Of a DNA stretch of 64,000 bases, positions 7,957 to 62,625 are shown in pieces. Both the position numbers and the translations under genes were made by a program. Under the pieces are notes generated by a model. It was not told the origin of the DNA and made no database searches. It worked only from the letters and a program-made list of their open reading frames with translations. Position 1 is the stretch's first letter. Each line of letters begins with the position of its first letter. The stretch is from an uncultured cyanobacterium. GTDB lineage: Bacteria > Cyanobacteriota > Cyanobacteriia > Phormidesmidales > Phormidesmidaceae. Location: assembly GCA_963793265.1 (NCBI GenBank), contig CAWBZI010000001.1, positions 1,312,001 through 1,376,000 on the forward strand, in the 5' to 3' direction.

Positions 7957-9768
7957 ATGTTTTCTGACATTGCAAATCACTGGGCTAGCCCGTGCATTGT
8001 GGCACTCTCCCAACGCGGCATCCTTAGCGGCTATCCCAACGGCACGTTTCGGCCAAAGGCTACGGTAAGCCGGGCGGAGTTTGCAGCCCTGATGCCGAAG
8101 GTGTTTCCAGATTTGTTAGCACAGCAGGCATCCCTAGCGTTTCGAGATGTGCCGGTTGAATATTGGGCGCATGACGCAATCGCCTGGGCCACCGAGCGCG
8201 GCCTGTTTAGCGGCTATGAAAACGGCACGTTTCGCCCCCGGCAAAATGTTTCTATCGCCCAGTCCATCGTTGTGTTAATGCTAGGACTAGAAGCGACCCA
8301 AGGCTTTGACACTACGTTGATACCGTTGGATGAGCCAGTAACGGAACAAAACTTGGTCGCTGAGCAGTTTAGCGATGCAGCAAAGATCCCGGACTATGCA
8401 CGTGAGGCAATCGCCGCTGCCCTTAACCGTCAGCTTCTAGAACAGCTCAAATCGCCGCGTTCACTGCGGCCCCAGCAGGCCGTGACTCGAGGCGAAGTCG
8501 CTGCTTTGCTCTGCCGCGTTTTAGAAGTACCGAGCACAGAGCTGGCCAGTCACTATCCAGCCTTGAGCGCTGCCGAAAATACTCAAGCTGTCTTTCAACA
8601 GTTTCTTCAGCAAGAGGCAGAGTTTGACCAGGCCAAGCTAGCTTTTCTAGATCGAAGCATACAGTCATCTCCCTATCGCAGCGATATTACTAAGTATGCG
8701 CTGCGATTACAGGAGCCAGATGCGATCGCCCCCTCCCTAAAAAATGCAGCACCTTATCCCAAAACGGGCGACGTATTTTTTGTTAATGACGACGGGCTAG
8801 CGTTTCTATCACCCGATATTTTGTCGGCCTGCGTGTGTATAGCAACGGTGCAGAACGGCGAGCTGCAGGGGCGATGGTTAGGACGGGATGCTTTAAGTGA
8901 TCGCCAGCTTTGGAGTTCAACCAAATTCATTCCGCTACTCAACGTCGCCGCGCGGGCTAATGCCGTTTCACCAACCGCAGATATCGACCAGTGCCGGGTG
9001 AGAGCTGTCGGCAGCACTGGTAAATATAGCGGCTTCCCCTTTCACGATTTGGCCGCTGGCATTATGAGCTACGACAACCGCATTGCGACCTCTAATTCGC
9101 TTGCGGTAATGTTCAAAAACTTTGAAACTCCAGCGCGTTTGGAAAAGTGGACACAGCAAATGACCGGGAGCCAGTCGCTTTCTTTCCAGGGCCGCTATGG
9201 TGAGGTGCCTTTCATCCAAATCCCTGAGCTGTATAGCTTGCAGACTAAAGAAGTGCTGCTAAAGTCACCGAAGGCAGACCATAGCGGCCAAAACCTGATG
9301 TCTACTTACGATTTGACGCGGCTGATGACTATGGCCGGTTGGCACTGGCGGCTACCGGCACGCTCAAGAATTCCTAATTTACAAACGCACAGTTTAGAGA
9401 GCATCATTCGAGCGATGGGTGTCGATACCGCGCGGTATGTGGATGTGGCGCTGACGGCTTTGGGCTTAGATCAGGTGGTGCGATCGCCTGTGATTATGTC
9501 TAAAAGTGGGTTTGGCCGGAGTGATGGACGCGATCGCACCGAACTCACCTACTGCGCCCTTGCCCAGTTCAGCCTCCCCCGCCAGATTGCCAATCCCAAC
9601 GTAGGCGCACCCGATCCTACCGCTGCCTATCAAAACTACTCAATTGGCTTCACGCTCATCGCGGCTCAGGGCGTAGGAGATGCCAATGAAGAAGCGCGAT
9701 ATGTAGATGCCCTAATGGCCGCTTCTGTTACAGAGATTATTCGTCGCGCCGTGCTGAATGAGCTATGA
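7957..9768 (+). CDS. S-layer homology (SLH) domain protein with a C-terminal serine-hydrolase-like region
   Basis: Three SLH repeats (SGYPNGTFRP, SGYENGTFRP, LRPQQAVTRGE); SSTK, YDN and KSG motifs downstream. Confidence 0.75.
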   Translation: MFSDIANHWASPCIVALSQRGILSGYPNGTFRPKATVSRAEFAALMPKVFPDLLAQQASLAFRDVPVEYWAHDAIAWATERGLFSGYENGTFRPRQNVSIAQSIVVLMLGLEATQGFDTTLIPLDEPVTEQNLVAEQFSDAAKIPDYAREAIAAALNRQLLEQLKSPRSLRPQQAVTRGEVAALLCRVLEVPSTELASHYPALSAAENTQAVFQQFLQQEAEFDQAKLAFLDRSIQSSPYRSDITKYALRLQEPDAIAPSLKNAAPYPKTGDVFFVNDDGLAFLSPDILSACVCIATVQNGELQGRWLGRDALSDRQLWSSTKFIPLLNVAARANAVSPTADIDQCRVRAVGSTGKYSGFPFHDLAAGIMSYDNRIATSNSLAVMFKNFETPARLEKWTQQMTGSQSLSFQGRYGEVPFIQIPELYSLQTKEVLLKSPKADHSGQNLMSTYDLTRLMTMAGWHWRLPARSRIPNLQTHSLESIIRAMGVDTARYVDVALTALGLDQVVRSPVIMSKSGFGRSDGRDRTELTYCALAQFSLPRQIANPNVGAPDPTAAYQNYSIGFTLIAAQGVGDANEEARYVDALMAASVTEIIRRAVLNEL

Positions 9769-9799
9769 CGCTGGCAGCACAGCCAATAGACGTGCTTAG

Positions 9800-11011
9800 C
9801 TACTTGTTCAATTTGAGATCAGTCGCAGATTTTGTAACGCGCTCTGTTTGAACCACGTCTATCCTCGATTCTGCTAGGCGCTTCATCCAGCCGCTCAAGT
9901 AGTCATAGTTAATCACTTGCTCTTTCGGATCGCTAGTATCAGCCGGATAAGGCATCATGCCTCTGACCGCCGCTTCCGTCACGCAAAACATTGACTTCTG
10001 AAAGCTCACGCAGAGCTGCACTCGAATATCGTCTTGCCCGCGCTTAGATTTTTGATAGATGTCGCGCAGGTATCTTGGCACATGATGACGCATGTCTTGC
10101 ATCAGCAGCGTCGGTGGGATGCCCGCTCCCCCAATTGGCAGCGGGTCAGCAAACAGCGCGCCATAGCCAAACTGCGCCTGATCGATCGGTACCTGCTGCG
10201 CTTGAGCGTTATACGAAACCGTGCCAAAAAACGGCGTTCCTCTTAAGAAGATGGTTTCTACATAGGGCACCGCCGTGTCTGATAAAAAGGTAAGCCCTAC
10301 TGACTCCGGGATAATGTCGTACTCAGTACCGCCTATATTCACGGCGTAGGTGATAGGCTTAGCCGCGCTGGCAACAAGTCCGTCTTTCACCAGCGAAACC
10401 ACATCGGCAATGGACTTGATTTTTCCCTGGTTGTATTTCTTGGCCAGATCCATGAAGATATCGCTCATTACCCGCCAAAACTGACCGAGCCCCGCGTAAT
10501 AGCAGAGCTGACGCACCTGCTCAGCCAAATACTCTGGAAAAATACCGTTCAGGGTCAGCAGCACCGGATTGAACCGGCTTTTGGCGCGAACCGCTGGAGA
10601 GCAGCAGGCCCAAAAGTCGTCTGAATCTAAATAGGCGTCTAATCCGCCGCCGCCGTGCCACATCATCGTTCGCATCACATACTCGGCATATTCGTAGTTA
10701 ATACGGTCATGCCATAGATGCTTCACTATCTTTTGTGGCGTTACATCTCCGTTGAAGTATTTGAACAGCGGGAACAGCACCAAGAACTGACTATCTGCAA
10801 TGTAGTTGAGATTTTTAGAATAGGCGTCTAAGACCACACCGTAGGCATCTAAAACACCGACAACCTCTTTTAAGTTCTCAGGCGTTTCGGGCAGTAGCGT
10901 CCCCCCCTCTACTAGGCGATCGATATAGTCTGCTGAAGAATAAGCTGGCGCGGCTTTTAGCTGCGGTGCAGAAGGTGTTGAGGTCATAGCAGGCACGCTT
11001 GAAATAGCCAA
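9800..11011 (-). CDS. cupB: CO2 hydration protein CupB (ChpX)
   Basis: WHDRINYEYAEY..MMWHGGGGLDAYLDS and GIPPTLLMQDM; follows ndhF4/ndhD4 with no cupS. Confidence 0.88.
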   Translation of the reverse strand: MAISSVPAMTSTPSAPQLKAAPAYSSADYIDRLVEGGTLLPETPENLKEVVGVLDAYGVVLDAYSKNLNYIADSQFLVLFPLFKYFNGDVTPQKIVKHLWHDRINYEYAEYVMRTMMWHGGGGLDAYLDSDDFWACCSPAVRAKSRFNPVLLTLNGIFPEYLAEQVRQLCYYAGLGQFWRVMSDIFMDLAKKYNQGKIKSIADVVSLVKDGLVASAAKPITYAVNIGGTEYDIIPESVGLTFLSDTAVPYVETIFLRGTPFFGTVSYNAQAQQVPIDQAQFGYGALFADPLPIGGAGIPPTLLMQDMRHHVPRYLRDIYQKSKRGQDDIRVQLCVSFQKSMFCVTEAAVRGMMPYPADTSDPKEQVINYDYLSGWMKRLAESRIDVVQTERVTKSATDLKLNK

Positions 11012-11019
11012 TTTTCAGA

Positions 11020-12597
11020 TCAGTTATTGAGGACAGATGCGCCGAAAGGGAAATCGGGATTAGGGAAGAAAGCAGGCGGCTGAGTAATCGCAACTTGCTC
11101 AGCCGGGGGGATAAATTCAGACGGGAAAATAAAGGTTGTCGTGGTCGCCTCCATCCAGCGCGTCATCCATTCAGGCTGCAGGCCAAAGGCAAATATCAGC
11201 AGCACTAGCGCTAGGGCAGGAACGCGATCGCGCCATTTTACCCCAGAGATCAGCGTATCGACCGGAGCATTCACGTTCGGCGGGGTCACCGTTAGCCGCC
11301 CGAAAAACACCCGGTTAATCATTAGCAAAAAGTATACCGCTGTGAGCCCCGAACCCACCATACACAGCAGCGTTTGCGGCGCGAAGCTCTCAAAACTACC
11401 GCGAAACACAACAAATTCTGAGATAAAGCCCATCATGCCAGGAATCCCGGCACTGGCCATTGCCCCTAGCACCATCAGCGAGCCAACAAAAGGCAGACCT
11501 CTCTCGGGAGCCATCAGCCCTTGTAACACATTTAAATCGCGTGTTCCTGTTTTTTTGTAAACCACACCTACCAGCAAAAACATCAGCGCCGAAATCAGAC
11601 CGTGGCTCACCATCTGCATGACCGTGCCTAGAATACTCAAAGGTGTAGCAGCAGCAGCGGCTAGCAGAATGTATCCCATATGACCGACCGAGCTATAGGC
11701 GACCATTTTTTTCATATCGGTTTGGGCGATCGCAGCCAAAGACCCATACAAAACGCTCGCCACCGCCCACCAGGCCAGCCAGGGCGAAATCTCTATCCAC
11801 GCATCAGGAAACAGCCCCACGCAAAAGCGCAAAATGCCGTAGGTTCCCAGCTTCAATAGCACGCCCGCTAGCAGCACCGATATCGGCGTAGAAGCTTCCA
11901 CGTGAGCATCAGGGAGCCAGGTATGAAAGGGCACCAGCGGAATTTTGATGCCGAATCCCACCAGCAAAATCACCAGCAGCACGGTCTGCTGCGCCAGCGT
12001 CAATCCTTGTGCTAGCGCCGGATCGTAGTCAAAGCTGCCCGTACCTGAAAGAAAAGCGAGTCCCAAAAAAGCCGCTAAGATCAGAATGCCAGAGAACGCG
12101 GTGTAGATTAAAAACTTAGTCGCCGCGTAGCCTCTGCGTTCGCCGCCCCAGATTGCGATTAATAAATAGAGCGGAATCAGCTCCAGCTCATAAAACAAGA
12201 AGAACAGCAGCAGGTTTTGAGCCAAAAACGCGCCCGCCACCGCGCCCGAGATAACCAGCAGCAGCGAGAAATAAAGCCGAGGTCGCTTAATATTCGCGCT
12301 TAGATACACCGAAACAAAGCTCAATAGCGCGTTGATAACCACCAAAGGCAGCGCAATGCCGTCAACCCCCATGCCGTAGCTGAGGCCCAAAGGCTCTATC
12401 CAGCTCAACTGCTCTACAAACTGAAAGCCAGGATTTGTTACGTCATACTGACTGACCAAATACAGCGAAAGCACAAACGTTACGCCGAGCGTAATCAAAG
12501 CGCCTAGCCTAGCCTGCGCGGACTCTAGCTTGCCGGGCCAGATGCCAATGAGCAAAGCACCCATCAGCGGAACTAACAGCAGTGAACTCAATATCAC
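11020..12597 (-). CDS. ndhD4: NDH-1 subunit 4, CO2-uptake type (NdhD4)
   Basis: FYELELIPLY, KIPLVPFHTWLPDAH, LLKLGTYG motifs; operon context. Confidence 0.88.
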   Translation of the reverse strand: MILSSLLLVPLMGALLIGIWPGKLESAQARLGALITLGVTFVLSLYLVSQYDVTNPGFQFVEQLSWIEPLGLSYGMGVDGIALPLVVINALLSFVSVYLSANIKRPRLYFSLLLVISGAVAGAFLAQNLLLFFLFYELELIPLYLLIAIWGGERRGYAATKFLIYTAFSGILILAAFLGLAFLSGTGSFDYDPALAQGLTLAQQTVLLVILLVGFGIKIPLVPFHTWLPDAHVEASTPISVLLAGVLLKLGTYGILRFCVGLFPDAWIEISPWLAWWAVASVLYGSLAAIAQTDMKKMVAYSSVGHMGYILLAAAAATPLSILGTVMQMVSHGLISALMFLLVGVVYKKTGTRDLNVLQGLMAPERGLPFVGSLMVLGAMASAGIPGMMGFISEFVVFRGSFESFAPQTLLCMVGSGLTAVYFLLMINRVFFGRLTVTPPNVNAPVDTLISGVKWRDRVPALALVLLIFAFGLQPEWMTRWMEATTTTFIFPSEFIPPAEQVAITQPPAFFPNPDFPFGASVLNN

Positions 12598-12664
12598 AAT
12601 CTTTTTCTGACCCCTTTCACCTTATCCAAAGTCTTGCTGCCTTCTCCTAAATTCAGTGCTGCTT

Positions 12665-14506
12665 CTACCACATCGCCCAGGTTGTCATTAGCACCAGTAG
12701 CGCTGTCCCGGCCACGATAGTGAGAATGTAGTTTTGCGATCGCCCCGAAGCGCTGTACTTAAGCCCCTCACCCGAGAGCAAAGACGCCGCCCCGACAAAA
12801 TTCACCGCCCCATCAATCACATAGCGATCCATCCAGTTGCTCAAATTTGAAAGCTGACTCACCAGCCGCACCACCGTTAGGTCGTAAAGCTTCCCAGTGT
12901 AAAAGTCGTTGCCGAGCAAATCTTGAACCACCCGCAGCCAGGCCGTACTAGAGCGCGACCAGGCTCGATTAAGCGGCAGATAAAAGCCCAGCGACACGCC
13001 CAGCACCCCAGAGGCCACCAACAGCAGCACCGCCGTCACATTGAAGTAGGCCATCGGCGGCAGCAGCGATAGCTGTGCCATCATCACCGGCACCAGCAGC
13101 ACCATCACCGAAAGCGTCACCATCGGCACGGCCATCAGCCAGCCCACCTCAGGCGTCCGGTGAGTCTTCGGCTGCGGCTTACCCAAAAACACCAGCCGAA
13201 ACACCCGCACCATATTCAGCGTCGTGAGAAAGTTCACCAGCAAAAACACGCCCACTAGCAGCGGATGCTCACTCCACAAAAACTCAATGCCTAAGCAAAA
13301 CGACCAGAAGCAGCCAAACGGAAGAATACCTGTAAGCCCCAAAGCAGCCGTCATATAGGCAATTGTCGTAGCAGGCATTCGCGACCAAAGCCCGCCCAGC
13401 TCCGTTAAGTCCTGATTATTAGTCGAAAAGATAATCGAACCGATGCTCATAAATACGAGCGCTTTAGCTAAGGCATGAGTGAATAGCAGCAGCAAGGCCA
13501 CACCCGGCCACTCCGTACCCACCGCAATAAAAACCAGCCCAATATAGGCGCTCGTAGAGTACGAAAACGCTCGCTTAAAATCGATTTGGGCCAAGGCCAC
13601 CAAAGAAGCCCCCACCGCCGTCACCGCACCAATCACAATCAGCACGTCTAGCGTAATGGGCGAAATTACAACCACCGGCTGAATCTTAATGAGTACATAA
13701 GCGCCTGTTGTCACCACCACTGAATTTCGCAAAATAGAAGCCGGACTCGGCCCCTCCATCGCTTCATCTAGCCATAGGTGCAAAGGAAACTGAGCGCACT
13801 TACCCGTCGGCCCTGCAATCAGCGCTAAGCCCGTCAACGTAGCGGCCAGCGGCGTAATATCAGCAACCTTCACCCAGTTATACAGATCGTTGTAGTTGAG
13901 ACTGCCAGCATAGGTGCTCAGCGCAATTAGCCCCATAAACAGCAGCACATCACCAACGCGCTTAGTCAAAAAGGCATCCCGAGCCGCCGTTACCACCAGC
14001 GGCTGAGCGTACCAGAACCCAACGATCAAGTACGTCGAGAGCGTTAGCATCTCTAGTAAAAAATAGCTAGAGAACAAAGAGCTGCTCAAAATAACGCCGC
14101 TAATCGCCCCTTCAAAAAAGCCCATCAGCGCAAAGAACCGAGCCAGCGCCCAGTCTTTTTCTAAGTAGCCCATCGCATAGATTTGCGCAAGCAGGCTCAA
14201 GCCTGCGGTCAGCTCTAAGAAAATCAGGTTGACAGCCGAAAGATCCAAAGAGGCCGATAGGTTGAGCCCTGCTGCTGAAAACCACTGGAAATCGACCTCT
14301 TGAGCGCCACCGCTCCAAATAGTCTGAAGTAAGAAGAACCCGTGCAAAGAAGCCAGCAGCGTCATAAAAACGTTGATGTACATAGCCGGACGAGGCCCGG
14401 TTCTTCGGATCAACCGAGTAGCCCAAGGCAGCGCTAGCAAAGCACCCACCAGGCCATACATCGGGATCAACCAACTCCACTGAATCAAAAACTGCATCTC
14501 TGGCAC
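12665..14506 (-). CDS. ndhF4: NDH-1 subunit 5, CO2-uptake type (NdhF4)
   Basis: RRTGPRPA, AARDAFLTKRVGD, KCAQFPLHLWLDEAMEGP motifs. Confidence 0.88.
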   Translation of the reverse strand: MPEMQFLIQWSWLIPMYGLVGALLALPWATRLIRRTGPRPAMYINVFMTLLASLHGFFLLQTIWSGGAQEVDFQWFSAAGLNLSASLDLSAVNLIFLELTAGLSLLAQIYAMGYLEKDWALARFFALMGFFEGAISGVILSSSLFSSYFLLEMLTLSTYLIVGFWYAQPLVVTAARDAFLTKRVGDVLLFMGLIALSTYAGSLNYNDLYNWVKVADITPLAATLTGLALIAGPTGKCAQFPLHLWLDEAMEGPSPASILRNSVVVTTGAYVLIKIQPVVVISPITLDVLIVIGAVTAVGASLVALAQIDFKRAFSYSTSAYIGLVFIAVGTEWPGVALLLLFTHALAKALVFMSIGSIIFSTNNQDLTELGGLWSRMPATTIAYMTAALGLTGILPFGCFWSFCLGIEFLWSEHPLLVGVFLLVNFLTTLNMVRVFRLVFLGKPQPKTHRTPEVGWLMAVPMVTLSVMVLLVPVMMAQLSLLPPMAYFNVTAVLLLVASGVLGVSLGFYLPLNRAWSRSSTAWLRVVQDLLGNDFYTGKLYDLTVVRLVSQLSNLSNWMDRYVIDGAVNFVGAASLLSGEGLKYSASGRSQNYILTIVAGTALLVLMTTWAMW

Positions 14507-15186
14507 TTCAGAATTTTTTAAAAATCGAAAAAGAAGACGATCTAATGAGTTGTGACGGCACCCTTTTTATGTCATTCCAAATGCTCAATTAAAATTGCTC
14601 TGAGAAAAGATAAAAGAATGTTTGCAAGGCTGTTTTAAGGGGCGTTTTTGCTTTATAGGAGCCTATTGACAACCGGCTGACATCGCTTTTACATACCTCT
14701 ACTCTACAAGTGGAAGCGCTCTCATATTTCTTTATATTACCTGACGCAGGTCGCTCAATGCCTTTAGCTAGCGCTTAACACAGCTTCATATTTCAACACA
14801 AACAGCCACGAACCCCGCATAAGCTTTAATAATGCTCGCTATTAGTAACAATCATTGAGGCTTATATTGTCAAAGGGGCAACGTCACTTTATTCTGAGTT
14901 ATGACGCAGGAGTTATACAGGCTCGCCTGAGATAAATTTTTGAGTCCGGTTTATTAAGAACTGGAGTTTTGAAACTAAGCTTTGCGCTATAAAATTTAGA
15001 CCAAATTTTAGGCATCTAGACGGCTAGTTTTAGCAGCTAAAGTTGCTGGCACTGTATCGCTATTCTGAAAAGTAGCGGTATTCCATAAAGATCGAATGAA
15101 AGGGTCGATGCAGCGCGATTAAGGCAAGTTTTAGAGGCAAAGGCTCAACTCTGTAATAGCTTTTTATTTGAAGGAGATCTCGACTA

Positions 15187-15495
15187 ATGCCTATTGCTGT
15201 TGGAATGATTGAAACAAAGGGGTTTCCCGCAGTCGTTGAGGCGGCTGATGCGATGGTGAAAGCTGCTCGCGTTACTTTGGTGGGCTACGAAAAAATTGGT
15301 AGTGGCCGAGTTACCGTCATTGTGCGCGGCGACGTTTCTGAAGTGCAGGCTTCTGTCTCTGCTGGCGTGGAGTCAGTCAAGCGCGTTAACGGCGGCGAAG
15401 TGCTCTCTACGCACATCATCGCGCGTCCTCACGAGAACCTGGAGTTCGTCCTGCCGATTCGCTACACCGAAGCGGTCGAACAGTTCAGGTCTTAA
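15187..15495 (+). CDS. ccmK2: Carboxysome shell protein CcmK2
   Basis: BMC domain, KIGSG pore motif, 102 aa, RBS AAGGAG. Confidence 0.93.
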
Positions 15496-15579
15496 GTGCT
15501 TTGGCTGATGATGTAGAAGCGAGGCTTAAAATTCGCCTTTCGTTTTGACTTTTTTGTTTTGATTTTTTAGGAAAAGAGT

Positions 15580-15918
15580 ATGGCAATTGCAGTAGGTATG
15601 GTGGAAACGTTGGGTTTCCCCGCAGTGGTTGAAGCGGCTGATGCGATGGTGAAAGCCGCTCGCGTTACTTTGGTGGGCTACGAAAAGATTGGTAGTGGCC
15701 GAGTCACCGTCATTGTGCGCGGCGACGTTTCTGAGGTGCAAGCCTCTGTCGCTGCTGGCGTTGAGAACGTCAAGCGGGTTAACGGCGGTCAGGTGCTCTC
15801 GACGCACATCATCGCGCGCCCTCACGAGAACCTTGAGTTCGTGCTACCGATTCGCTACACCGAAGCGGTTGAGCAGTTCCGCGAAAGCGTCAGCGGCATC
15901 CGCCCTTACGGTAGATAA
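15580..15918 (+). CDS. ccmK1: Carboxysome shell protein CcmK1
   Basis: BMC domain with a C-terminal extension of about 10 aa. Confidence 0.92.
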
Positions 15919-15928
15919 GTAACGCTTT

Positions 15929-16231
15929 ATGCGCTTAGCAAAAGTTAGAGGGACTGTCGTTAGTACCGTGAAAGACGACAGTCTGATGGGGGTCAAGCTG
16001 CTGCTTGTTCAGCTCATTGAAGAGTCAGGCGAGCTTCAGAACGAATATGAAGTCGCTGCCGATGTTGTCGGGGCTGGTGTTGGCGAGTGGGTGCTGGTGA
16101 GTCGGGGTAGTTCGGCGCGTCAGCAGCAGGGCTACAGCCAACGGCCTGTAGACGCTGCCATCATTGCAATTGTAGATACGGTTAGCCTGGATTCTGGTCT
16201 GCTGTATGACAAACGAGAAGATTTTAGATAG
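15929..16231 (+). CDS. ccmL: Carboxysome vertex protein CcmL
   Basis: AKVRGTVVST...VGAGVGEWVLVSRGSSAR...DAAIIAIVD. Confidence 0.95.
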   Translation: MRLAKVRGTVVSTVKDDSLMGVKLLLVQLIEESGELQNEYEVAADVVGAGVGEWVLVSRGSSARQQQGYSQRPVDAAIIAIVDTVSLDSGLLYDKREDFR

Positions 16232-16307
16232 GGACAAAACGGGTAATAACGTTGCTTTGTATCTGAAATACCAGTTTTGAAATGTCAGAAGAAAGCAGGA
16301 GGCCGGT

Positions 16308-19831: not shown

Positions 19832-19835
19832 GCGT

Positions 19836-52488: not shown

Positions 52489-52510
52489 GCTCTCTTGATT
52501 TAGCCGCTCG

Positions 52511-53074
52511 CTACGAATCAATATACAATTCATCAAGCACGTCAATACTAGCCTCTTCTGAATCGAGCGTTTCAGCTTCAGTCATTTCAGCTTCAGTCAT
52601 CTCAGCTTCAGGCATCTCAGCTTCAGTCATTTGGGCCTCAGTCATTTGGGCCTCAGACGCACCCTCTTCAGCCATCGTCTCGTCAGTCGCTTCGTCTTCC
52701 ATCATGGCTTCTTCTGCAAGATCTGTATCGATAGACTGCGCTGTCGCTTCTGGCTGAATTGAAACCGTTCCATCTTCGGAAACAACGAGCTTCCATTCAC
52801 CCTTACTCTGGTTGTCATGCTGACTAATAGAGGAGAGTGAATTAGAAGAAGACAGCGCTTGGTCTTGAGGAACGACGCTACCGTCAGATTGCAAGATCAG
52901 CTTAGGGGTTTGCTCAGAAGCAGCGGTGACAGGCGCTATACGGGTCGATTCCGAGGTGGGTGATAGTGCGATCGCACTTCCTGCTGTCAGGGCCATGCCA
53001 GCGCCCGTTTGCAGCAGCGCGCCAAAGAGCACAAGCGGCAGATTGGTATTTTGAGAATTTGCATCGGCTGACAT
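52511..53074 (-). CDS. Hypothetical acidic protein with an N-terminal hydrophobic segment and EA(E/Q)MT repeats
   Basis: RBS AGGAG precedes ATG 53074; internal 15-bp tandem repeats. Confidence 0.65.
   Translation of the reverse strand: MSADANSQNTNLPLVLFGALLQTGAGMALTAGSAIALSPTSESTRIAPVTAASEQTPKLILQSDGSVVPQDQALSSSNSLSSISQHDNQSKGEWKLVVSEDGTVSIQPEATAQSIDTDLAEEAMMEDEATDETMAEEGASEAQMTEAQMTEAEMPEAEMTEAEMTEAETLDSEEASIDVLDELYIDS
52571..52656. repeat. Coding tandem repeat, 15-bp unit, about 5.7 copies
   Basis: Units TTCAGCTTCAGTCAT / CTCAGCTTCAGGCAT / TTGGGCCTCAGTCAT. Confidence 0.85.
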
Positions 53075-53247
53075 AGCAGTGACTCCTAACAGGACTTCCG
53101 TAATATTACTGACTTTCTTGTCAAGCAAGATAATAACTCAAAAGAACTAACGTATCTTCAAATATGAAGAATATTGACTTTAGTAGGATAAAATCGTCTG
53201 TATTCTATTGATTTTGCGATTAAGACTGATGAATTGAACGCATTGCG

Positions 53248-54477: not shown

Positions 54478-54482
54478 CGGTG

Positions 54483-56081
54483 ATGAAAGAAGCAAGCTAC
54501 AAGAAATACTATCAGGCCATAGCGGAGACGCCAAAAGTCGCAGTGCCTTACAGACAGCTTGCTAGTGCTCTATTGGAGGACGCAGATTTTGAACAGGCGA
54601 TCGCCTTCGCTAAAATCGCGCTAAGCCTGAATCCCAATGACTTTCAAGCAGCCCTCCTGCTTCAAAAAAGCATCGACGCGCTACACAAACTGTCCTATCC
54701 AAAAAGGCCATCAGCGCAAGCACACCAGCCAGCTAAACAACCACCACTAATAGCCGAAGAAGGGAACAACTACACTTTTATCAGTCAAAAAGTACAAGGG
54801 TTCATCAACAGCTCACAGCCTTATCACCTGCCTGTTTCCATCATTATCCCGACCTATAATCGTAAAGACAAACTTGCTCGCGCGCTAGCTGCCCTTACTC
54901 ATCAGAGCTATCCTCAACACCTCATCGAAATTATCGTAGCCGACGACGGCAGCACCGACGGTATCGAAACCGTCATTCAAAAGTTTCAACAGCACCTTAC
55001 GATCAAACATGTTTGGCAGCCAGATTTAGGCTTTCGGCTAGCGGGCGTGTGCAATCTTGGCATTCAGAATGCGACTCACAACTGCATTGTTTTGCTACAG
55101 TGCGACATGATTCCTCGGCCTGAGCTGGTAGAAGCCTATATGCAGTACCTTCATACCGGCGAGAGAGTCTTTTTGATTGGCGGGCGTCAGTTTGTGTGTG
55201 CAGATGATATTACAGATGATCAAATTTTAGCCGACGTTGACGCAGCCTTGAGTTTACCGGCGATTAAAACCAACAACGAAATTTGGCAAGGACAAAAGTC
55301 CTGGCAAGACTGGCGAATTCCCGTCTATCAAGAAACAGACGGTCTTAAGAAAGAGAAATATCCTTTCAGAGCGGCTGTGGGCTCTAACCTCGCATTCTCT
55401 AAGCAGTTAGTGGAAGAGATTGGGGGCTTTGACGAAGACTTCCATGCCTGGGGCGGCGAAGATCGAGAGTTTGGCTATCGGGCTTATAATGCGGGCTACT
55501 ATTTTATTCCGGTTAAGAAGGCGCAGTGTTTGCATCAGGAGCCACCGGAGGGCGTGAATGAGAGCGATCGCAAGCTGGGCAGCAGGCTGGCGAAAAAAGG
55601 GTGCGAGGAGAAATGCCCTATGCCTACCGATAGGAAATATCAGGCAGGAAGAGTTTATGCCGTGCCTAAAGTCTCTATCTGCGTCGTTGTTTTTTCAAAT
55701 GCCGACACGCCGCGATTGCTCAGAACCTCTATCGAAAGCGTGCTCAACCAAACTTACACAGATTTAGAAGCTTTTGTTATTGTCTGTGGCGTTAACAGCC
55801 ATCGTTTTCAAAGCCTGCAGGTTAACTTCTCGGCAGATAAACGCGTGAGATGGAAAGTGTTGAGGCGGCAATACGCTTTGGAAAGCGTTTTGAACGGCGG
55901 CTTTAAGCGAGCAAAAGGCGCTTATATTGGGTACTTGAAGGCGGGAGATACGCTACGGCCCGATGAGATTGAAAGATTAAATCAGCGTTTGGATGAGGGC
56001 GATGATGGCTGCGCGTTTGAGGAGGCGATCGCGCAGCCCTTTCAGTTATTTAGAAAGCGCGACTGGATGAGAGCGCAATGA
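54483..56081 (+). CDS. GT2 glycosyltransferase resembling chondroitin/hyaluronan synthases (KfoC/PmHAS), with an N-terminal TPR-like segment
   Basis: SIIIPTYNR, VADDGS, QCDMIP, DWR, WGGEDREFGYR, HQEPP, then VPKVSI...ESVLNQTYTDLE. Start is 54471 or 54483. Confidence 0.8.
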   Translation: MKEASYKKYYQAIAETPKVAVPYRQLASALLEDADFEQAIAFAKIALSLNPNDFQAALLLQKSIDALHKLSYPKRPSAQAHQPAKQPPLIAEEGNNYTFISQKVQGFINSSQPYHLPVSIIIPTYNRKDKLARALAALTHQSYPQHLIEIIVADDGSTDGIETVIQKFQQHLTIKHVWQPDLGFRLAGVCNLGIQNATHNCIVLLQCDMIPRPELVEAYMQYLHTGERVFLIGGRQFVCADDITDDQILADVDAALSLPAIKTNNEIWQGQKSWQDWRIPVYQETDGLKKEKYPFRAAVGSNLAFSKQLVEEIGGFDEDFHAWGGEDREFGYRAYNAGYYFIPVKKAQCLHQEPPEGVNESDRKLGSRLAKKGCEEKCPMPTDRKYQAGRVYAVPKVSICVVVFSNADTPRLLRTSIESVLNQTYTDLEAFVIVCGVNSHRFQSLQVNFSADKRVRWKVLRRQYALESVLNGGFKRAKGAYIGYLKAGDTLRPDEIERLNQRLDEGDDGCAFEEAIAQPFQLFRKRDWMRAQ

Positions 56082-58511
56082 ATCTTTTGCCTTGAGTGCC
56101 AGCATCCAAAACAGCGGGATTCCAGAATATTCATGAGGCGCAATATTGTTAGCAGGCGCGATCGCTCTAAACGCAGCATTCTTACGAATATCAGGATACG
56201 CATCACAGGCAAATCGATACAGCGCTGAAAACCGTTCTCTATTGAAAGGCTGCTTTTGCCGGTAAGGCCAATCCCGATTGAAATAGGGCAACAGCCACTC
56301 AAATCCTTTCTCTAAACCAGCGCCCTCGCGCGTCGTGTATCGCCATAAGTCAATGCCGACATGCTCCGCAACTTTGGCTAAGTTAGCCCAGTTTTGCAGG
56401 TTAAAGGTGCAGTAGTGCAGCGTGGCGCTTCGCTTCAGTTCTTGAGGCTGTTTGCCACCGGGCTCAAACTGTTTTGCCAGCCTGAGCTTACTGTATTCGA
56501 GCGTTTTGAAAAGAGCGATCGCATCATCACAAAACCCAGCTAGCGCGGCCACTTGAAGATCATAGCAGGTGCCATGATTATTCACCGCTCGCCCCTCTGC
56601 TTGGCCCTGAGCGCTCGTCATCAGCCAGTTCAAAAGCGACTGACACCAGGCTTGTAGCCCTTCATAGTCGGCCTGTGACCACGCATCCGAGTAGCGCAGC
56701 AGCTTCACCGCATCTAAAAAGTAATAGAAATCTTTGGTGTCAATAATGCCCCACCGTGCGCCCAGATTGTTGTTGTTTCCCATCTCAACCTGAGCATATT
56801 TAAGATGAGGCGTCATTTTAGTCGCCGGATCTAAAAACCACGTGCGTACCAGGTTTGCAGCATGGTCTGCATAGTGGCGATCGCCCGTGATATACCAGGC
56901 CATTGCTAAAGTCGTCGTATTGTTTAGCGTTCTCTGTAGGCGAGCGTGGTCGTATTGGTTGCTCTCTTTAGAATATAACTTAGTTGCAGGCATTCGCTGA
57001 CCGTCGCGAAATACATACGGTAAGCCATCGGGCTTCGTTGGATCTGGCCAGCTAAAGGCCGATAGTGAAAAGTAGTCGTGGGGACTACCGCTGGCGGGCA
57101 TGGCTGTTTTTTGCATCACAGAGTAGGCCGGATGCTGGAGGGCTTTGTTAGCTAGTGCCTTGAGCTGTCGAAAGAAATCAAAGGCGCGTGGCTGGCGATC
57201 GCACCGACACTTATACAGGCACTTATCGCGAAACTGATCCAGGGTTTGCTGATTAAAAAACAACAGCTCGTGAGCCTTGAAGCAACGGCGAAAGATGCTT
57301 TCATCAATTGCATCGATAAACTGCCATACCGCCGCCTGCCGGTCAACTGTGCGCCCGCTCAGTCCTGCGCGGCCCTGATCGTGATCTAGCGCGTGGCCAG
57401 AGGCCAGACGAGCGACCCGGCCTGCCGATTGCCACTGGCCCGCTTCAGCAGAAACCGTCCACTGCTTTCGCTCCCAGGGTTTGTAGTTCCACCTGTCCCA
57501 AATGCCCGGTATTTTTAGCCGCCTGAACAGCTCAACTTTGGTAAAACGGCCATACTGTAAAGATTCGTCAAAGCGTTCCTTGGAGCTTTGATGAATTGCA
57601 ATTTGCGGTTCTTCAGTCGGCGGTGGAATTTCGCCGGGCGTAAAAAGCTGCTCGTTGGTAGTTAGCCGAATCATCGGCAAAATAAAGTGTTTAATCGATG
57701 GTTTATTGTCTCGCTTGGGCCTGATCTGAACAGTTTTTAAAACACGACGCCAGGCAGCTAGCGTCATAAAACAGCCGCCGTCTAACACTAGCGTCCAGTC
57801 GGCTTTTTGCTGACCTTCGTCTAAGGCTAAATTGCGGACGGCGTTGAGGTTGATGGCGGCTAGGTTTTTGGGTCTGTAGGGGCGATCGCCCGCCCAAATC
57901 TGACTGTTGCGATCAAGTTTTTGAAAGGCGGGCGATCGCAAAAAATCAGGCTCCAAAAAACTCTCAAAGTCGTAATCCACCCTGGCATAGGCCGCCTTGT
58001 CAAACGGGATATGCCGATACGTTTGATGGTGCGTCGTTAAAGTCTTTAAGATCTTCTGTTCTTGTTCTGCATCTACAATTCTGTTGACTATCCAAGTCTT
58101 TTGGCAGCGATGCAAAGGCGGCTCATGATTCAAAATAAACTCAAGATTGGCCAGCGTTTGCCCCACATAATGACGCGGTGGCAAATCACTGCCTAAGATT
58201 CTGTAAAGAATAAAGCTAGGCGAACTCTGTTGACTCGTCGCGCTCGATACAACACAATCTTCGATGCCTAAAACATTCGAGACAAGGGCATTCCACTCAC
58301 CCAGCTCAGTAAAATTTTCAATATCGAAAGCATGCTTTCGTTGCACAGAGATCTCTTTAAAGCGGGCCACCCAGTCGGCAATGAGCTGACCAGAGAGCCG
58401 TGAGCTTTGAACAGACGCTTTAGAGAAATAGTGGCCCATTGAGTCATAGTTACCGCACCAGTACTGCCACCAGGCAAGGTCTAAAAGGTCAAAGTTGTTC
58501 ATCTTCATCAC
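56046..58511 (-). CDS. Alginate-lyase-family protein with an N-terminal GT-like domain
   Basis: HDYFS...WPDP..PDGLPY..RDG, WFLDPATKMTPHLKYAQ, NNHGT, HYCTFNL. Confidence 0.75.
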   Translation of the reverse strand: MMKMNNFDLLDLAWWQYWCGNYDSMGHYFSKASVQSSRLSGQLIADWVARFKEISVQRKHAFDIENFTELGEWNALVSNVLGIEDCVVSSATSQQSSPSFILYRILGSDLPPRHYVGQTLANLEFILNHEPPLHRCQKTWIVNRIVDAEQEQKILKTLTTHHQTYRHIPFDKAAYARVDYDFESFLEPDFLRSPAFQKLDRNSQIWAGDRPYRPKNLAAINLNAVRNLALDEGQQKADWTLVLDGGCFMTLAAWRRVLKTVQIRPKRDNKPSIKHFILPMIRLTTNEQLFTPGEIPPPTEEPQIAIHQSSKERFDESLQYGRFTKVELFRRLKIPGIWDRWNYKPWERKQWTVSAEAGQWQSAGRVARLASGHALDHDQGRAGLSGRTVDRQAAVWQFIDAIDESIFRRCFKAHELLFFNQQTLDQFRDKCLYKCRCDRQPRAFDFFRQLKALANKALQHPAYSVMQKTAMPASGSPHDYFSLSAFSWPDPTKPDGLPYVFRDGQRMPATKLYSKESNQYDHARLQRTLNNTTTLAMAWYITGDRHYADHAANLVRTWFLDPATKMTPHLKYAQVEMGNNNNLGARWGIIDTKDFYYFLDAVKLLRYSDAWSQADYEGLQAWCQSLLNWLMTSAQGQAEGRAVNNHGTCYDLQVAALAGFCDDAIALFKTLEYSKLRLAKQFEPGGKQPQELKRSATLHYCTFNLQNWANLAKVAEHVGIDLWRYTTREGAGLEKGFEWLLPYFNRDWPYRQKQPFNRERFSALYRFACDAYPDIRKNAAFRAIAPANNIAPHEYSGIPLFWMLALKAKDSLRSHPVALSK

Positions 58512-60496
58512 GAACCGCTCGCCTGCAGTTTGCTGGTGACTCGCTCAATCCGCAGGCGAATTTCCTCAGCTTGATCGTCTCGGCCCAGTGTTTGCCAGAG
58601 TGCAAGTGCCTGCTCAAGGTAGTCTATTGACTGTTCAAAGCTCGACTGTTGTTCATAAACGCCACTGATCTGTCTAAGAATTCTAGCTGTCGCTGCCAGA
58701 TCGTCTAGCTCGCGGCTAATCGTGACAGCCTGCTGATAAGCGTCAATGGACTGTTCGTAGCTGCCCTGCTGATAGTAGACAGCGCCCATGCTCTTGAGCA
58801 CTTTGCCCTCACCACGACGATCGCCAATCTGATTGCGAATATCGAGTGCTCTTTGATAGTAGTCAATCGCCTGTGCGTAGTCTTCTCTCGCCTTGTGCAC
58901 ATTACCAATATTGTTCAGCGTAGAAGCTTCTACGGTTTGATGGCCAACCTCGCTGTTTAGATCCAAAACCTGTTGATAATAGTCCAGCGCCTTGTCATAT
59001 TGTTGTAGGTCAAAATAAATACGACCGATGTTGTTGAGCATTCGAGCTTCGCTAGAGCGATCGCCAATCTGCCTGCGCGCAGCTAACGACTGTTCGTAAT
59101 AGTCCAGCGCTTGAGTCAAATCGCCACGATCATGAGCTAGCAAGCCCAAACCGTTAAACGCCAGTCCCAGACCCGGTACAAAATCAATTTCTTGGCTAAT
59201 CGCCAAAACCTGCTCATAGGTTGAACGCGATAAATCTTGCTTTTCTTGGGAGCGATAGTTGAGGGCGATTTCAGTGAGCGCGTTGGCTTCACCCATGCGA
59301 TCGCCGTTTGCCTGATGAATTGCTAACGACTGCTGCGCGTAGTCCAGCGCCTGATCGTACTGGCCCAAGTACCAGTGAGCAGCCGATAGGTTCACCAGGG
59401 TTTGGCCCTGCCCCCCCAAGTCGTCCAGATCAGTCTGTATCGCTAGCGCCTGCTCATAATGTGAGATGGCCTTAGTATATTGACCCCATGAGGCATAGAC
59501 CCGAGCCAGGTTTCGTAAAGCCTTGGCTTCGCTGAGGCGATCGCCCACCAGCGGTCGTTTACTAATTTCCAAAGCCTGCTGATAGTTCTCTACAGCCTGT
59601 GAATAGTCACTTTGATGATAGTAAGACTCCCCGATTCTGTTGAGCGTTTTGCCCTGCTCTGCCAAATCGCCCGTTTCTGCTTGAACAGCTAGCGCCTGCT
59701 GATAAAGCGATCTGGCCTGCGGATAGTCACTCTGGAGCTGATACACCCAGCCTGTCAGCCGGAGCACTCGGCCTTTTCCAGTGCGATCGCCAATCTCATC
59801 AAACAGCGATCGCGCCTGCGCGTAATAGCCCAGCGCCTGCGGATAGTCGTACGTCCGCAGGCTCATCTCGCCCTGATTTTCTAGCGTTTGCCCTTCCCCC
59901 TGTCGGTCTTGAATTGCGTCTGCAACCGCCCAGCTTTTCTCATACATCGCCTGAGCTTTGTCATACTCGCCCGCCTGCCGATGCATCGTTCCTAGCTTTC
60001 TAAGCGCAATGCCCTCCCCTAGCTGCTCCCTAAGCGCCTCCGATAGCGCCAGACTTCGACGATAGTAGTCCCAAGCCATTTCACGATCTTTTTCAGATTC
60101 AGCCACCTCACCTAAGTACCGCAGCGTTTCACTTTGCCCTAGCCGATCTTTCACCCGCTCAGCAATCTGCAAACTCTCCTGCAAAGCTGCCTTCGCCTGC
60201 TGCGTTTCGCCCGTCGCCAAATAGGCCCGTCCTAAGTTCGCCAGCGCCTGACTTTCTCCTAAGCGATCGCGCACCTCCCTGGCCCGTTGCAAATGCCGCT
60301 GATGATACTCAATCGCCTGCAAATACACGCCCTGATTGTGATACACCTCGCCAATATTGCCAACTGCCTGCCCCTCTCCTAGCGCGTCGTCGATTTCTCG
60401 GGCAATCGTCAAATGCTGCTCATGATCCTGCAAAGCTGCCGGGTAATCGCCTAAGTTGTTGCGCATTACCCCCAAATTGCCGTACGCATAGCCCAT
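58508..60496 (-). CDS. Long TPR array, probably the C-terminal half of the upstream AAA_35 gene
   Basis: About 16 repeats of roughly 40 aa (GDRxGEGxxLxNLG); the frame stays open upstream past 60640. Confidence 0.8.
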   Translation of the reverse strand: MGYAYGNLGVMRNNLGDYPAALQDHEQHLTIAREIDDALGEGQAVGNIGEVYHNQGVYLQAIEYHQRHLQRAREVRDRLGESQALANLGRAYLATGETQQAKAALQESLQIAERVKDRLGQSETLRYLGEVAESEKDREMAWDYYRRSLALSEALREQLGEGIALRKLGTMHRQAGEYDKAQAMYEKSWAVADAIQDRQGEGQTLENQGEMSLRTYDYPQALGYYAQARSLFDEIGDRTGKGRVLRLTGWVYQLQSDYPQARSLYQQALAVQAETGDLAEQGKTLNRIGESYYHQSDYSQAVENYQQALEISKRPLVGDRLSEAKALRNLARVYASWGQYTKAISHYEQALAIQTDLDDLGGQGQTLVNLSAAHWYLGQYDQALDYAQQSLAIHQANGDRMGEANALTEIALNYRSQEKQDLSRSTYEQVLAISQEIDFVPGLGLAFNGLGLLAHDRGDLTQALDYYEQSLAARRQIGDRSSEARMLNNIGRIYFDLQQYDKALDYYQQVLDLNSEVGHQTVEASTLNNIGNVHKAREDYAQAIDYYQRALDIRNQIGDRRGEGKVLKSMGAVYYQQGSYEQSIDAYQQAVTISRELDDLAATARILRQISGVYEQQSSFEQSIDYLEQALALWQTLGRDDQAEEIRLRIERVTSKLQASGS

Positions 60497-60627
60497 CCCA
60501 CGCCGATCTTCTAAAGCTTCAGCCTGATCCCGGCTCCGGCTCAGGTAGTCAAGCGCGTCTTCAAACCCACCAAGCCGATAGAAAACATTGCGCCAGCGCT
60601 GAATTCCCAGCGTGCCAATAAACGAAT

Positions 60628-62625
60628 CTAAGGCCCCGCCACCCGCTCGGCCTTGGCCTCTAAAGTTTTCACGTCCGTCGCCAGCTTGTTCTTTTGAGCG
60701 GCCAGCTTGTCCTTTTGAGCAGTCAGCTCACTCGTTTGTGCCGCCACCTCGCTCAGCTGAGTCTGCAAAACTTCAGATTCATCATTCTTCGCCGCCAAGT
60801 CTTGCGTCACACTCGTCAGCTCTTGCCGCGTCTGCGCCGTTCTTGCCTGTGCCGCCTGACTGGCCGCCTCTGCTGTCTGCTGTGCGTCAATCGCCTGCGC
60901 CACCTCGGCGGTCACCTGCTGATTTTCTTCAGCTAGCGCCTGGTTCGTCGCCCCAAGCGCGTCATTGGCTAAGCCCAGCTTTTGATTATTGACTTGCAGG
61001 GCTTCTTGGTCGGCTTGCAGTTCTCTTTTTTCAGTCGAAAGTTCTGCCAGCCCAGCCAAAGCCGATTCCTTACTCAGTTCCGCTTTGCGCATATCGTCTT
61101 GCGCCGACTCAGCGCGCGCTGACTCTTGCAAAGCTTTTCCCTGAGCCCACACCGCCCCTGCCGTAGACAGGCTAATTAGCCCAGCGCCCAGCGCCGTTAG
61201 CCAGCCAGTTCTACGCTTAGCTCGCAGCAAATCACGCCGCGCCGCCGCCAGCTTTTGCTGAATCGCACCTAGCTCAGCGCGAAAGCCCAGCTTCTGACTT
61301 TCCACTAAAAAGTCATAGTCCTGCTTGCCCAAACTCCGAGACTCGGCCCAGACTAAAGCACCTGTTAGCGCCTCCCCTTGCAGCAGCAGCGAATCGTCTT
61401 GTTTGCCCGCATCAATCCAGTGATTAATTTCTTCACCGTAAGGGCGAATTGCCATCAGCGCCCGGTCTATCCAGGCTTGGGCAAACACCTCGCGATAAAT
61501 CGGGTTATACACTTGCAGCGTACCGATACGATCTACGACCAGGCCCGAAAGGCGAAGGATGACCTGCTGCGAGCTGCCGTCTTGTAAAATGCCGCCATGA
61601 TTTAGGATCTGCTGATAGAGGCCCAAAAGCTGGTTGGCGTGGGTTTCACTGTGGAGAATGCGATCACGAATCGTCTTTAGGTGCGATGGCTGATCCTGCA
61701 TTTCCCAGTTGTCGATCACGTAGGTTCTCACCACATATTCCACAAGCTGCTCGGGGCTCGGTGAGTCGGGTAGGGAGGAGGGCGCTGGGGCCAGATCTGG
61801 AGGAAGCCCTGCGGCTGTTTGCGCGGACAGGGATTTGCGGGCGATCGCATCGTGCACAATCAAATGACAGACCTTCTGCGTCAAAAACGGCTGTCCGCCC
61901 GTCCAGGCCAGCACCGCCTTTAGCACCGCTTCAGGCTCACTTACTTTTTCAGCTAAGCCCGGCAGCAAAGGAGCCGCTTCGGCAAAATTAAACCCCACAA
62001 GCTGAATCGCCTGACCAATATTAAACGGCGTTCGCAGCCGGTCATTGGTCAGCTCATCTGGGGCCGCAACGCCCACCATGGCAAAGGTTAGCCGGTTCAG
62101 CTCAAGATTTTCAGCGCGCGTATCGTAGCACTCTCGAATCACTGCAAAAAAGTCGTGAATATCAAACGGCAGGCTCAGAACGCTGTCAATCTCCTCCCAA
62201 AAGATCACCACTGGCCCTGGCACAATTCTCAGCAGCACATCGCGAAAAAACTTACCCAGCCGCCGCACCGCCGATAGCTGATGATGTGCCTCCCACCAGC
62301 TATCCAGATCAAAATCCGGGTCAAGCCGCTCCAGTCGCAGCCGAGCAACGATATTATCGATCACGCTGAAATACCATTCCTTTGGCGTAATGCTCGTCGT
62401 ACCCAAGCCGCTAATATCAATCGAAGCGCAGGCCACCCCCTCAGCTCTTAGCCGGTCAATCGTTCGCACCCGCAGGCTCGACTTCCCCATCTGTCGGGAG
62501 TTTAGCACCGCGCAAAATTCACCGGCCTTCAGCGCCTGATACAGCATCTCATCGGCTGCTCTTGCCACATAGGTCGTCGCATCCGCAGGCAGGCTACCCC
62601 CGACCTGATAGCGGTATTTTGTCAT
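60628..62625 (-). CDS. AAA_35-like ATPase with TM helix and coiled coil (frameshifted relative to the TPR array)
   Basis: [41 protein letters not shown]. Confidence 0.8.

What the first reader, a model, noticed from the sequence alone, without database searches (positions are those of the whole stretch)
9420..61900. Local G-rich to C-rich strand switch centred on HIP1 (GCGATCGC) sites
Seen by eye at many HIP1 sites: the 50-150 nt to the left are G/T-rich and those to the right are C/A-rich, within one gene and regardless of gene direction. Examples: 9530 (GTGGGTTTGGCCGGAGTGATGGAC | ACCGAACTCACCTACTGCGCCC), 16573 (TCGGTTTGGGTGG | ACTCTCATCTCTCACAAA), 23256, 31300, 42562, 44269 (GAGGGGGGTG | TCATTCACTATCCTC), 51568 and 61841. 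The pattern is symmetric on both strands. Knowledge: HIP1 is methylated and its function is unresolved; a role in methyl-directed repair has been proposed. Inference: a strand-asymmetric repair or mutation process starts at HIP1 and spreads both ways, leaving a footprint at synonymous sites. Not quantified here.
Basis: partly seen in the sequence, partly recalled or inferred. Interest (0 to 1): 0.78.

Follow-up and report, generated by a model that had tools for sequence, protein, structure and literature searches.

The report
One-way G/C footprint around HIP1
In this cyanobacterium and most others tested that are rich in the 8-base palindrome HIP1, each DNA strand is G-rich before the word and C-rich after it at silent positions for up to about a kilobase, which points to a repair or recombination step that starts at HIP1 and rewrites one strand in one direction.

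Summary
Confirmed and general. In the window, 60 of 66 scorable HIP1 sites switch from G-rich to C-rich. On contig C1 z=43, while 63 control palindromes stay within ±3. The signal sits in silent sites, is equal for sense and antisense genes, ignores sequence context, and fades over about 55 nt with a tail of about 1.2 kb. The T/A part is weak. 181 of 185 HIP1-rich genomes lean the same way. It follows the motif: 0.04 at sites found in one of three species, 0.35 at sites shared by all three. Total substitution rate is unchanged; changes to C rise and their reverses fall. Best reading: HIP1 biases mismatch resolution so the strand 3' of it is rewritten. The enzyme is unknown and dependence on methylation is not shown. 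Not found in print. The scan noted the same footprint six times before on other DNA, twice in this genome.

The parts
1613..63965 (.). Span of the 67 HIP1 (GCGATCGC) copies in the window; each strand is G-rich 5' and C-rich 3' of most copies
   Evidence: 60 of 66 scorable sites positive
9530..9537 (.). HIP1 in the 603-aa ORF 7957-9768 (+); skew +0.43 left, -0.47 right
16573..16580 (.). HIP1 in ccmM (16308-18950, +); +0.44 / -0.39
23256..23263 (.). HIP1 in gyrB (21920-23863, +); +0.13 / -0.32
31300..31307 (.). HIP1 outside ORFs of 200 aa or more; +0.27 / -0.38
42562..42569 (.). HIP1 in nagA (41287-42705, +); +0.35 / -0.41
44269..44276 (.). HIP1 in an alpha-amylase-family glycosidase gene (42779-44500, +); +0.32 / -0.25
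51568..51575 (.). HIP1 in chlM (50924-51634, +); +0.39 / -0.58
61841..61848 (.). HIP1 in a minus-strand ORF (60628-62625); same polarity, +0.35 / -0.30
2055..63601 (.). Span of 11 GTGATCGC/GCGATCAC sites, the one near-miss class that carries the same two-sided switch genome-wide

Best explanation
HIP1 is an entry site for polar mismatch processing. Something that recognises the full octamer nicks or loads there, and the strand running 3' from the site is preferentially excised or resynthesised, over about 55 nt often and about 1 kb sometimes. Strand choice is then partly set by position relative to HIP1 rather than by strand age. Mispairs containing a G (G-T, G-G, G-A) are more common or better recognised than their C-containing mirror images (A-C, C-C, C-T). 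Rewriting the 3' strand therefore gains C and loses G on it, leaves A versus T almost unchanged, and leaves the total rate about the same. Shown: the footprint, its polarity, range, age dependence and reciprocal rate changes. Inferred: the nick, the excised strand, the mispair hierarchy and any role of MutS/MutL. Unknown: the recognising protein and the role of methylation.
For: Reciprocal rate changes at four-fold sites, 0-30 nt versus over 400 nt, pair G004-G009: T>C 1.52, C>T 0.74, A>G 0.60, G>A 1.07, G>C 1.98, C>G 0.62, A>C 1.55, C>A 0.86, A<>T about 1, total 0.94 [0.84-1.06]; the second pair is similar. A non-reversible three-species fit at 0-80 nt agrees in direction: C>T 0.78, A>G 0.73, C>A 0.73, A>C 1.40, total 0.94 [0.85-1.00]. 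All 24 of 24 neighbour contexts shift the same way. No 10-11 nt periodicity. Both neighbouring sites contribute, with opposite sign. Strength by site class tracks freedom to change: skew 0.41, 0.11, 0.077, 0.054 against divergence 0.324, 0.133, 0.069, 0.038 (measured in relatives). Skew grows with site age. The ~1 kb tail matches the range Elhai cites for GATC-directed repair. G-T is among the best repaired mismatches and C-C is not repaired in E. coli (PMC5416779). MutS found in 5 of 5 and MutL in 40 of 40 genomes searched.
Against: A simple additive preference C > A=T > G, as selection or conversion drive would give, fits the same six base pairs. In the non-reversible fit the increases T>C [0.96-1.52] and G>C [0.91-1.96] include 1. 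E. coli GATC sites show no comparable footprint (0.042±0.020, 434 sites). Half-sites carrying one GmeC show no switch (n=295), and rCCGGy in Oscillatoria PCC 10802 shows none (18085 vs 17747), both against Elhai's GmeC rule. MutL is present in low-skew genomes too. G000 encodes an ExoVII homologue (41%), so a lack of 3'-5' exonuclease does not explain the polarity. The paired test of lineages with and without a site was clear in only 1 of 3 pairs. The far baseline may differ in rate for other reasons.
Confidence: 0.45

Rival explanations
1. Recombination or transformation drive. HIP1 marks where incoming or sister-chromosome DNA is cut, loaded or begins strand exchange. Heteroduplex starting there is resolved with a base bias, so existing alleles are fixed unequally, as in GC-biased gene conversion. 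This differs from the best reading in the substrate: heteroduplex between alleles, not replication errors or lesions.
For: Reciprocal rates with unchanged total are what a fixation bias gives. HIP1 raises transformation of PCC 7002 in a homology- and methylation-dependent way, and not through AddAB (10.1101/2024.09.10.611283). HIP1 abundance correlates with DNA-uptake proteins (PMC13756078 abstract). HIP1 itself is highly conserved: 365 of 416 coding sites identical versus 37% of random 8-mers. ComEC found in 40 of 40 genomes.
Against: ComEC is equally present in the 20 lowest-skew genomes. The amplitude is nearly uniform along the genome (0.92±0.15, minimum 0.54, 57 bins). No allele-frequency data could be obtained.
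Confidence: 0.27
2. Strand-specific mutagenesis. A nick or break at HIP1 exposes the strand 5' of the site as single-stranded DNA, or a patch is filled by a polymerase with a different error spectrum, as around meiotic break hotspots (recalled).
For: The polarity fits: a G-rich strand 5' of the site is what C deamination on resected 3' tails would leave. T>C and G>A on the opposite strand are raised or unchanged.
Against: Total rate is not raised (0.94; my hand estimate for pure added damage is about 1.25). C>T, A>G and C>A fall below the far rate. Transversions shift as much as transitions. No context preference.
Confidence: 0.13
3. Weak selection for G-rich sequence 5' and C-rich sequence 3' of HIP1, because a protein loaded at HIP1 binds, pairs or translocates better on such strands.
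For: An additive preference with log-odds about +0.65 for C and -0.5 for G reproduces the rate ratios. Xu et al. argue that HIP1 is under selection (PMC5861425).
Against: No motif, triplet or helical periodicity. The reach of about 1 kb and the opposing pull of neighbouring sites are hard to get from binding. The T-over-A part expected for RecA-type GT preference (recalled) is near zero. Strength varies from 0 to 1.1 among HIP1-rich genomes.
Confidence: 0.12
4. Artefact of codon or amino-acid usage, gene direction or replication skew, or reverse causation: HIP1 arises where a G-to-C switch already exists.
For: Offsets out of codon register do give false signals (-0.18 and -0.35 for two hexamers). 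GT-rich islands round Chi were later put down to codon usage (recalled). No control motif was run across all 251 genomes.
Against: Equal for sense and antisense genes at four-fold sites. In-register controls are within ±0.05 for 5 of 6 motifs. Amplitude is independent of regional skew. Sites found in one of three species have no skew (0.04±0.04, n=28). Among 31,402 8-mer pairs far from HIP1, only GTGATCGC and words overlapping it stand out.
Confidence: 0.03

Closest known systems
HIP1 and Elhai's proposed GmeC-directed mismatch repair (PMC4390886; sections 8, 10, 11 and part 1 of 18 read, plus passages)
   Same: Same motif. Elhai proposes a nicking enzyme at methylated HIP1 that directs MutS/MutL over about 1 kb; the footprint's long tail has that range.
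   Different: Elhai reports only 1-3 nt palindromic extensions, no flanking strand bias and no polarity. His rule predicts action at half-sites and at rCCGGy; neither shows the switch here.
E. coli Dam/MutH methyl-directed mismatch repair
   Same: A short methylated palindrome with a GATC core sets which strand is excised; repair efficiency depends on the mispair (PMC5416779, passages).
   Different: Excision runs both ways and follows strand age. mutH is reported absent in cyanobacteria (PMC5101192, passages). GATC in 100 kb of E. coli shows no comparable footprint.
GC-biased gene conversion (recalled)
   Same: Forward and reverse substitution rates move in opposite directions with little change in total; non-synonymous sites are also pushed.
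   Different: Here the bias is strand-oriented (C versus G on one strand), anchored on a motif, and GC content changes little.
Strand-asymmetric mutation round meiotic double-strand-break hotspots
   Same: Rotationally symmetric base asymmetry centred on a site, G-rich on the 5' side.
   Different: That pattern comes with raised mutation; here total rate is not raised. It has not been tied to a bacterial palindrome.
GC-skew inversion at a replication terminus (recalled)
   Same: Same sign: G-rich before, C-rich after.
   Different: Occurs once per chromosome over megabases; here about 6,900 times over 0.1-1 kb, adding to the regional skew on both sides.

Membership tests
HIP1 | GCGATCGC hyper-abundant in a cyanobacterial genome | tested here: met
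   6,888 copies, 1.16-1.35 per kb on all 7 contigs; named relatives are Phormidesmis-group records
HIP1 | More conserved than comparable octamers | tested here: met
   365 of 416 coding sites identical between G004 and G009 versus 37% of random coding 8-mers
HIP1 | GATC and CGATCG methyltransferases encoded | tested here: inconclusive
   G000 has a Dam-like enzyme (36% to E. coli Dam) and a conserved C5 methyltransferase; their specificities were inferred, not tested
Dam/MutH methyl-directed mismatch repair | MutS and MutL present | tested here: met
   MutS 5 of 5, MutL 40 of 40
Dam/MutH methyl-directed mismatch repair | MutH endonuclease | not tested
   Not searched here; reported absent in all cyanobacteria examined by PMC5101192
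Dam/MutH methyl-directed mismatch repair | Any GATC serves as the signal | tested here: not met
   GATC and CGATCG outside HIP1 show no switch (-0.027 and -0.017); GGGATCCC shows none in 5 of 5 genomes
Dam/MutH methyl-directed mismatch repair | Lower total mutation rate near the signal | tested here: not met
   Total 0.94 [0.84-1.06] and 0.95 [0.78-1.13] in two pairs; my hand estimate for pure better repair is about 0.75
Elhai's GmeC-directed repair model | Half-sites and alternative HIPs carrying GmeC act like HIP1 | tested here: not met
   Half-sites: no switch, n=295; rCCGGy in PCC 10802: log ratio 0.019. Young age or high density of such sites could hide an effect
Elhai's GmeC-directed repair model | Effect needs a CGATCG methyltransferase | tested here: inconclusive
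   Two f6 genomes lack both candidates and the bias; but 23 genomes with neither found have median 0.18, one 0.87, and G097 and G099 have the C5 enzyme without the bias
Very-short-patch repair (Vsr) | Vsr endonuclease and a patch of about 10 nt limited to T-G mismatches | tested here: not met
   Vsr not found in 5 of 5 genomes; reach 55 nt to 1 kb and all C/G-involving pairs shift
NucS/EndoMS repair | NucS present | tested here: not met
   0 of 5 genomes over the family cut-off
GC-biased gene conversion-like drive | Derived-allele-frequency skew at polymorphic sites | not testable with these tools
   Contigs of 4 runs were near-identical or mixed with other organisms; 40 of 330 variant rows shown

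The most novel reading that the evidence does not exclude
HIP1 is the entry point of an undescribed, phylum-wide DNA processing system that chooses the strand to rewrite by its position relative to a palindrome (always the strand running 3' from it) rather than by its age. It would both preserve HIP1 and write a kilobase-scale sawtooth of C/G bias into most cyanobacterial genes, reaching into protein-coding positions.
Probability: 0.35. Interest if true: 0.92.

Novelty: new variant of a known kind. Interest (0 to 1): 0.8.

Why it matters
HIP1 has lacked a known function for about 30 years. The footprint shows that HIP1 anchors a directional, strand-specific process acting on the chromosome itself. 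It gives that process a polarity, two length scales and a predicted substitution spectrum, all of which can be tested with defined heteroduplexes or mutation accumulation. The per-genome strength (0 to 1.1) is a quantitative trait for finding the missing protein by comparative genomics. It also means that codon usage, synonymous rates and some amino-acid choices in cyanobacteria depend on distance and side relative to HIP1, which bears on codon-bias, dN/dS and gene-transfer analyses.

Tried and rejected
(1) Methyltransferase link. C5 enzyme and PF01555-type enzyme against skew in 185 genomes: both 0.66 (n=17), C5 only 0.18 (49), PF01555-type only 0.265 (96), neither found 0.18 (23). Not clean, confounded by kinship, and the second enzyme's specificity is unknown. 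(2) Dam-like clade. 20 of 20 high-skew versus 10 of 20 low-skew genomes in a hand-picked set. Over all 185, median 0.305 (138) versus 0.16 (47), but within the 7 families holding both states it was lower without the gene in 3 and higher in 4. Not established. (3) MutL, ComEC, Vsr and NucS do not separate high from low skew. (4) A lack of 3'-5' exonuclease as the cause of polarity: an ExoVII homologue is present. (5) Helical periodicity: none. (6) Replication direction: skew adds on both sides, slopes 0.77 and 1.06 on the regional value. (7) Parsimony polarisation at about 30% divergence is saturated and was not used for conclusions. (8) Paired lineages with and without a site: 355/325, 287/189 and 230/218; the shared-site control was 1407/1285. 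Mixed. (9) Polymorphism from public runs was uninformative. (10) No closely matching named record for family f6 came back, so no laboratory strain was measured by name except PCC 10802 and 20-kb loci. (11) Exact look-up of both methyltransferases found nothing. (12) First controls were out of codon register and were redone; TCGCGA still gave 0.21, probably through overlap with HIP1 (inference). (13) Searches for papers on Chi islands and hotspot asymmetry returned nothing relevant.
Full report
Observation. The window holds 67 copies of HIP1, GCGATCGC. Of 66 sites with full flanks, 60 are more G-skewed on the left than on the right (mean difference 0.284; random draws sd 0.026, maximum 0.095). 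The T/A part is 43 of 66, mean 0.10. The example sites lie in unrelated genes (ccmM, gyrB, nagA, chlM, a glycosidase) on either strand.

Genome-wide. G000 has 6,888 copies in 5.68 Mb; named relatives are Phormidesmis-group records. On contig C1 the difference is 0.225±0.005 over 2,199 sites, 82% positive. The 63 other palindromes with at least 30 copies away from HIP1 have z from -2.8 to +2.2. Read on the strand running 3' from the nearest HIP1, (C-G)/(C+G) at four-fold sites is about 0.6 at 0-10 nt, 0.44 at 20-30, 0.24 at 80-100 and 0.10 at 200-300, the same for sense and antisense genes. All 24 of 24 neighbour contexts shift the same way. The shift is C up and G down; A versus T moves -0.05 to +0.11 in log-odds. 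There is no helical period.

Range. A fit to 401,631 sites gives log-odds 1.35 decaying over 55 nt plus 0.57 decaying over about 1.2 kb. Left and right neighbours pull in opposite directions, and the next-nearest site counts about 0.3. In 443 intervals of 2 kb or more the skew falls from 0.54 to 0.19 at 300-400 nt and 0.07 at 800-1000 nt. The amplitude is 0.92±0.15 in 57 bins of 100 kb, never under 0.54, and adds to the regional skew. Intergenic bases shift less (0.11) than four-fold sites (0.41), first (0.077) and second (0.054) positions less still. This order follows divergence in two relatives (0.133, 0.324, 0.069, 0.038), so constraint can account for it; aligned intergenic DNA is biased to conserved parts.

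Motif. Among 31,402 8-mer pairs at least 400 nt from HIP1, the top is GTGATCGC/GCGATCAC (z=22.5), followed by words overlapping it. CGATCG without the outer G and C, plain GATC and half-sites show no switch. GTGATCGC is probably decayed HIP1: in relatives its flanks keep the skew (0.34-0.37, n=7), though only 4 of 23 such G004 comparisons are HIP1 in the other species.

Other genomes. I counted HIP1 followed by no G at six codon-symmetric offsets against the mirror pattern with no C; the tool's count matched my script in G000 (4158). Of 251 genomes drawn from the class, 185 had at least 500 matches in the two patterns together: 181 lean positive, 164 at z>3, median log ratio 0.26, G000 0.87, maximum 1.14. 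The 66 others total 2201 versus 2107 (counts typed by hand). Near-zero cases exist: G029, G165, G097, G099, G166, G210, G225, G273, G311. Kin are not independent, and no control motif was run over all 251. In G000, 5 of 6 in-register controls are within ±0.05. In named 10-22 kb loci, 80 of 99 with at least 8 sites are positive, pooled 0.126±0.008; 38 of 137 loci had fewer sites and were dropped. Two alternative palindromes lack the switch: GGGATCCC in 5 of 5 genomes and rCCGGy in Oscillatoria PCC 10802. E. coli GATC gives 0.042±0.020 over 434 sites.

Cause and effect. In three species 85-87% identical, flanks of sites present in one, two or three species have skew 0.04±0.04 (n=28), 0.21±0.04 (26) and 0.35±0.02 (107). 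The skew therefore accumulates after a site arises. A direct paired test was clear in 1 of 3 pairs only.

Rates. With saturation correction, four-fold rates at 0-30 nt relative to over 400 nt in G004-G009 are T>C 1.52 [1.28-1.82], C>T 0.74 [0.62-0.87], A>G 0.60 [0.48-0.76], G>A 1.07, G>C 1.98 [1.27-2.98], C>G 0.62 [0.38-0.92], A>C 1.55 [1.18-1.96], C>A 0.86, G>T 1.44, T>G 0.93, A<>T about 1, total 0.94 [0.84-1.06]. G004-G007 is similar except A>C 1.03 (reversibility assumed; the pairs share G004). A non-reversible fit on 2,770 near and 4,963 far sites gives C>T 0.78, A>G 0.73, C>A 0.73, A>C 1.40, T>C 1.30 [0.96-1.52], total 0.94 [0.85-1.00] (90% intervals). By my hand estimate pure extra repair would give a total near 0.75 and pure extra damage near 1.25. 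Neither fits, provided the far sites are a fair baseline.

Mechanism. The simplest account is that mispairs near HIP1 are resolved by rewriting the strand 3' of the site. A T opposite G then becomes C, a G opposite T becomes A, a G opposite G becomes C, an A opposite G becomes C, and a G opposite A becomes T. The mirror mispairs (A-C, C-C, C-T) push the other way, so the net direction needs G-containing mispairs to dominate. For G-T and C-C this agrees with E. coli data (PMC5416779, passages); for G-G and G-A it rests on recall. Whether the mispairs come from replication errors and lesions (best reading, 0.45) or from recombination heteroduplex (0.27) cannot be told from fixed differences. Added damage (0.13) and selection (0.12) remain open. 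No gene tested tracks the strength: MutS, MutL, ComEC are in all genomes searched, Vsr and NucS in none over cut-off, and the methyltransferase associations are unclean or vanish within families.

Literature. Elhai 2015 (PMC4390886: passages, sections 8, 10, 11 and part 1 of 18) proposes HIP1-directed repair and reports only 1-3 nt extensions. Xu et al. 2018 (PMC5861425: passages) and PMC13756078 (abstract, outline, passages) showed no mention of flanking skew in the passages returned. I saw passages of 10.1101/2024.09.10.611283 and PMC5101192. Searches found no paper on the footprint. The library lacks most subscription journals, and I read no supplements, which could bear on this. The scan's own notes hold six earlier reports of the same footprint, two in this genome (the search found none). 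They agree with my result but are not independent support; I saw them after the tests.

Verdict. Real, strong, phylum-wide and apparently undescribed in print. The kind of process (site-directed, strand-biased repair or conversion) is known and was proposed for HIP1, so I rate it a new variant of a known kind. Interest 0.8, because it makes the function of HIP1 directly testable.

Noticed in passing
G000 genome-wide; window 2055, 7427, 8897, 29908, 38065, 46655, 47750, 47758, 48474, 61660, 63594: GTGATCGC/GCGATCAC is the commonest one-off variant (766 versus 168-466 for the other 11) and the only one with the two-sided switch; it is what deamination of 5mC in HIP1 would give. In 80 kb of G029, where no C5 methyltransferase was found, it is rare (3) and first-position variants dominate (35-51).
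   Followed up: partly
G004 versus G009, loci L058-L172: HIP1 sites not shared between two species often differ at several positions: 27 of 85 have 3 or more mismatches, against about 13 expected from random coding 8-mers. This hints at multi-step or templated gain of sites.
   Followed up: partly
L053:1351-2775 and L184:1261-2307: A C5 methyltransferase (66 of 251 genomes) and a PF01555-type methyltransferase (119 of 251) have nearly complementary distributions, both found in only 17; all 9 genomes of this genus in the draw have both.
   Followed up: partly
L352-L371: D12-family methyltransferases of these cyanobacteria fall into at least three clades; five low-skew genomes carry a second Dam-like clade instead of the common one.
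   Followed up: partly
G027, G163, G207, G218, G257: The alternative palindrome GGGATCCC leans slightly the opposite way in 5 of 5 genomes of one genus (log ratios -0.02 to -0.12). Unexplained.
   Followed up: no
window 32338-33528 (+): mutY with a C-terminal MutT-like domain, both over their NCBIfam cut-offs. MutY acts on G-A mispairs (recalled), one of the classes in the model; no link tested.
   Followed up: no
G000 contigs C1-C7: Regional GC skew away from HIP1 is patchy, -0.06 to +0.06 per 200 kb, with no single long replichore pattern on the contigs.
   Followed up: no
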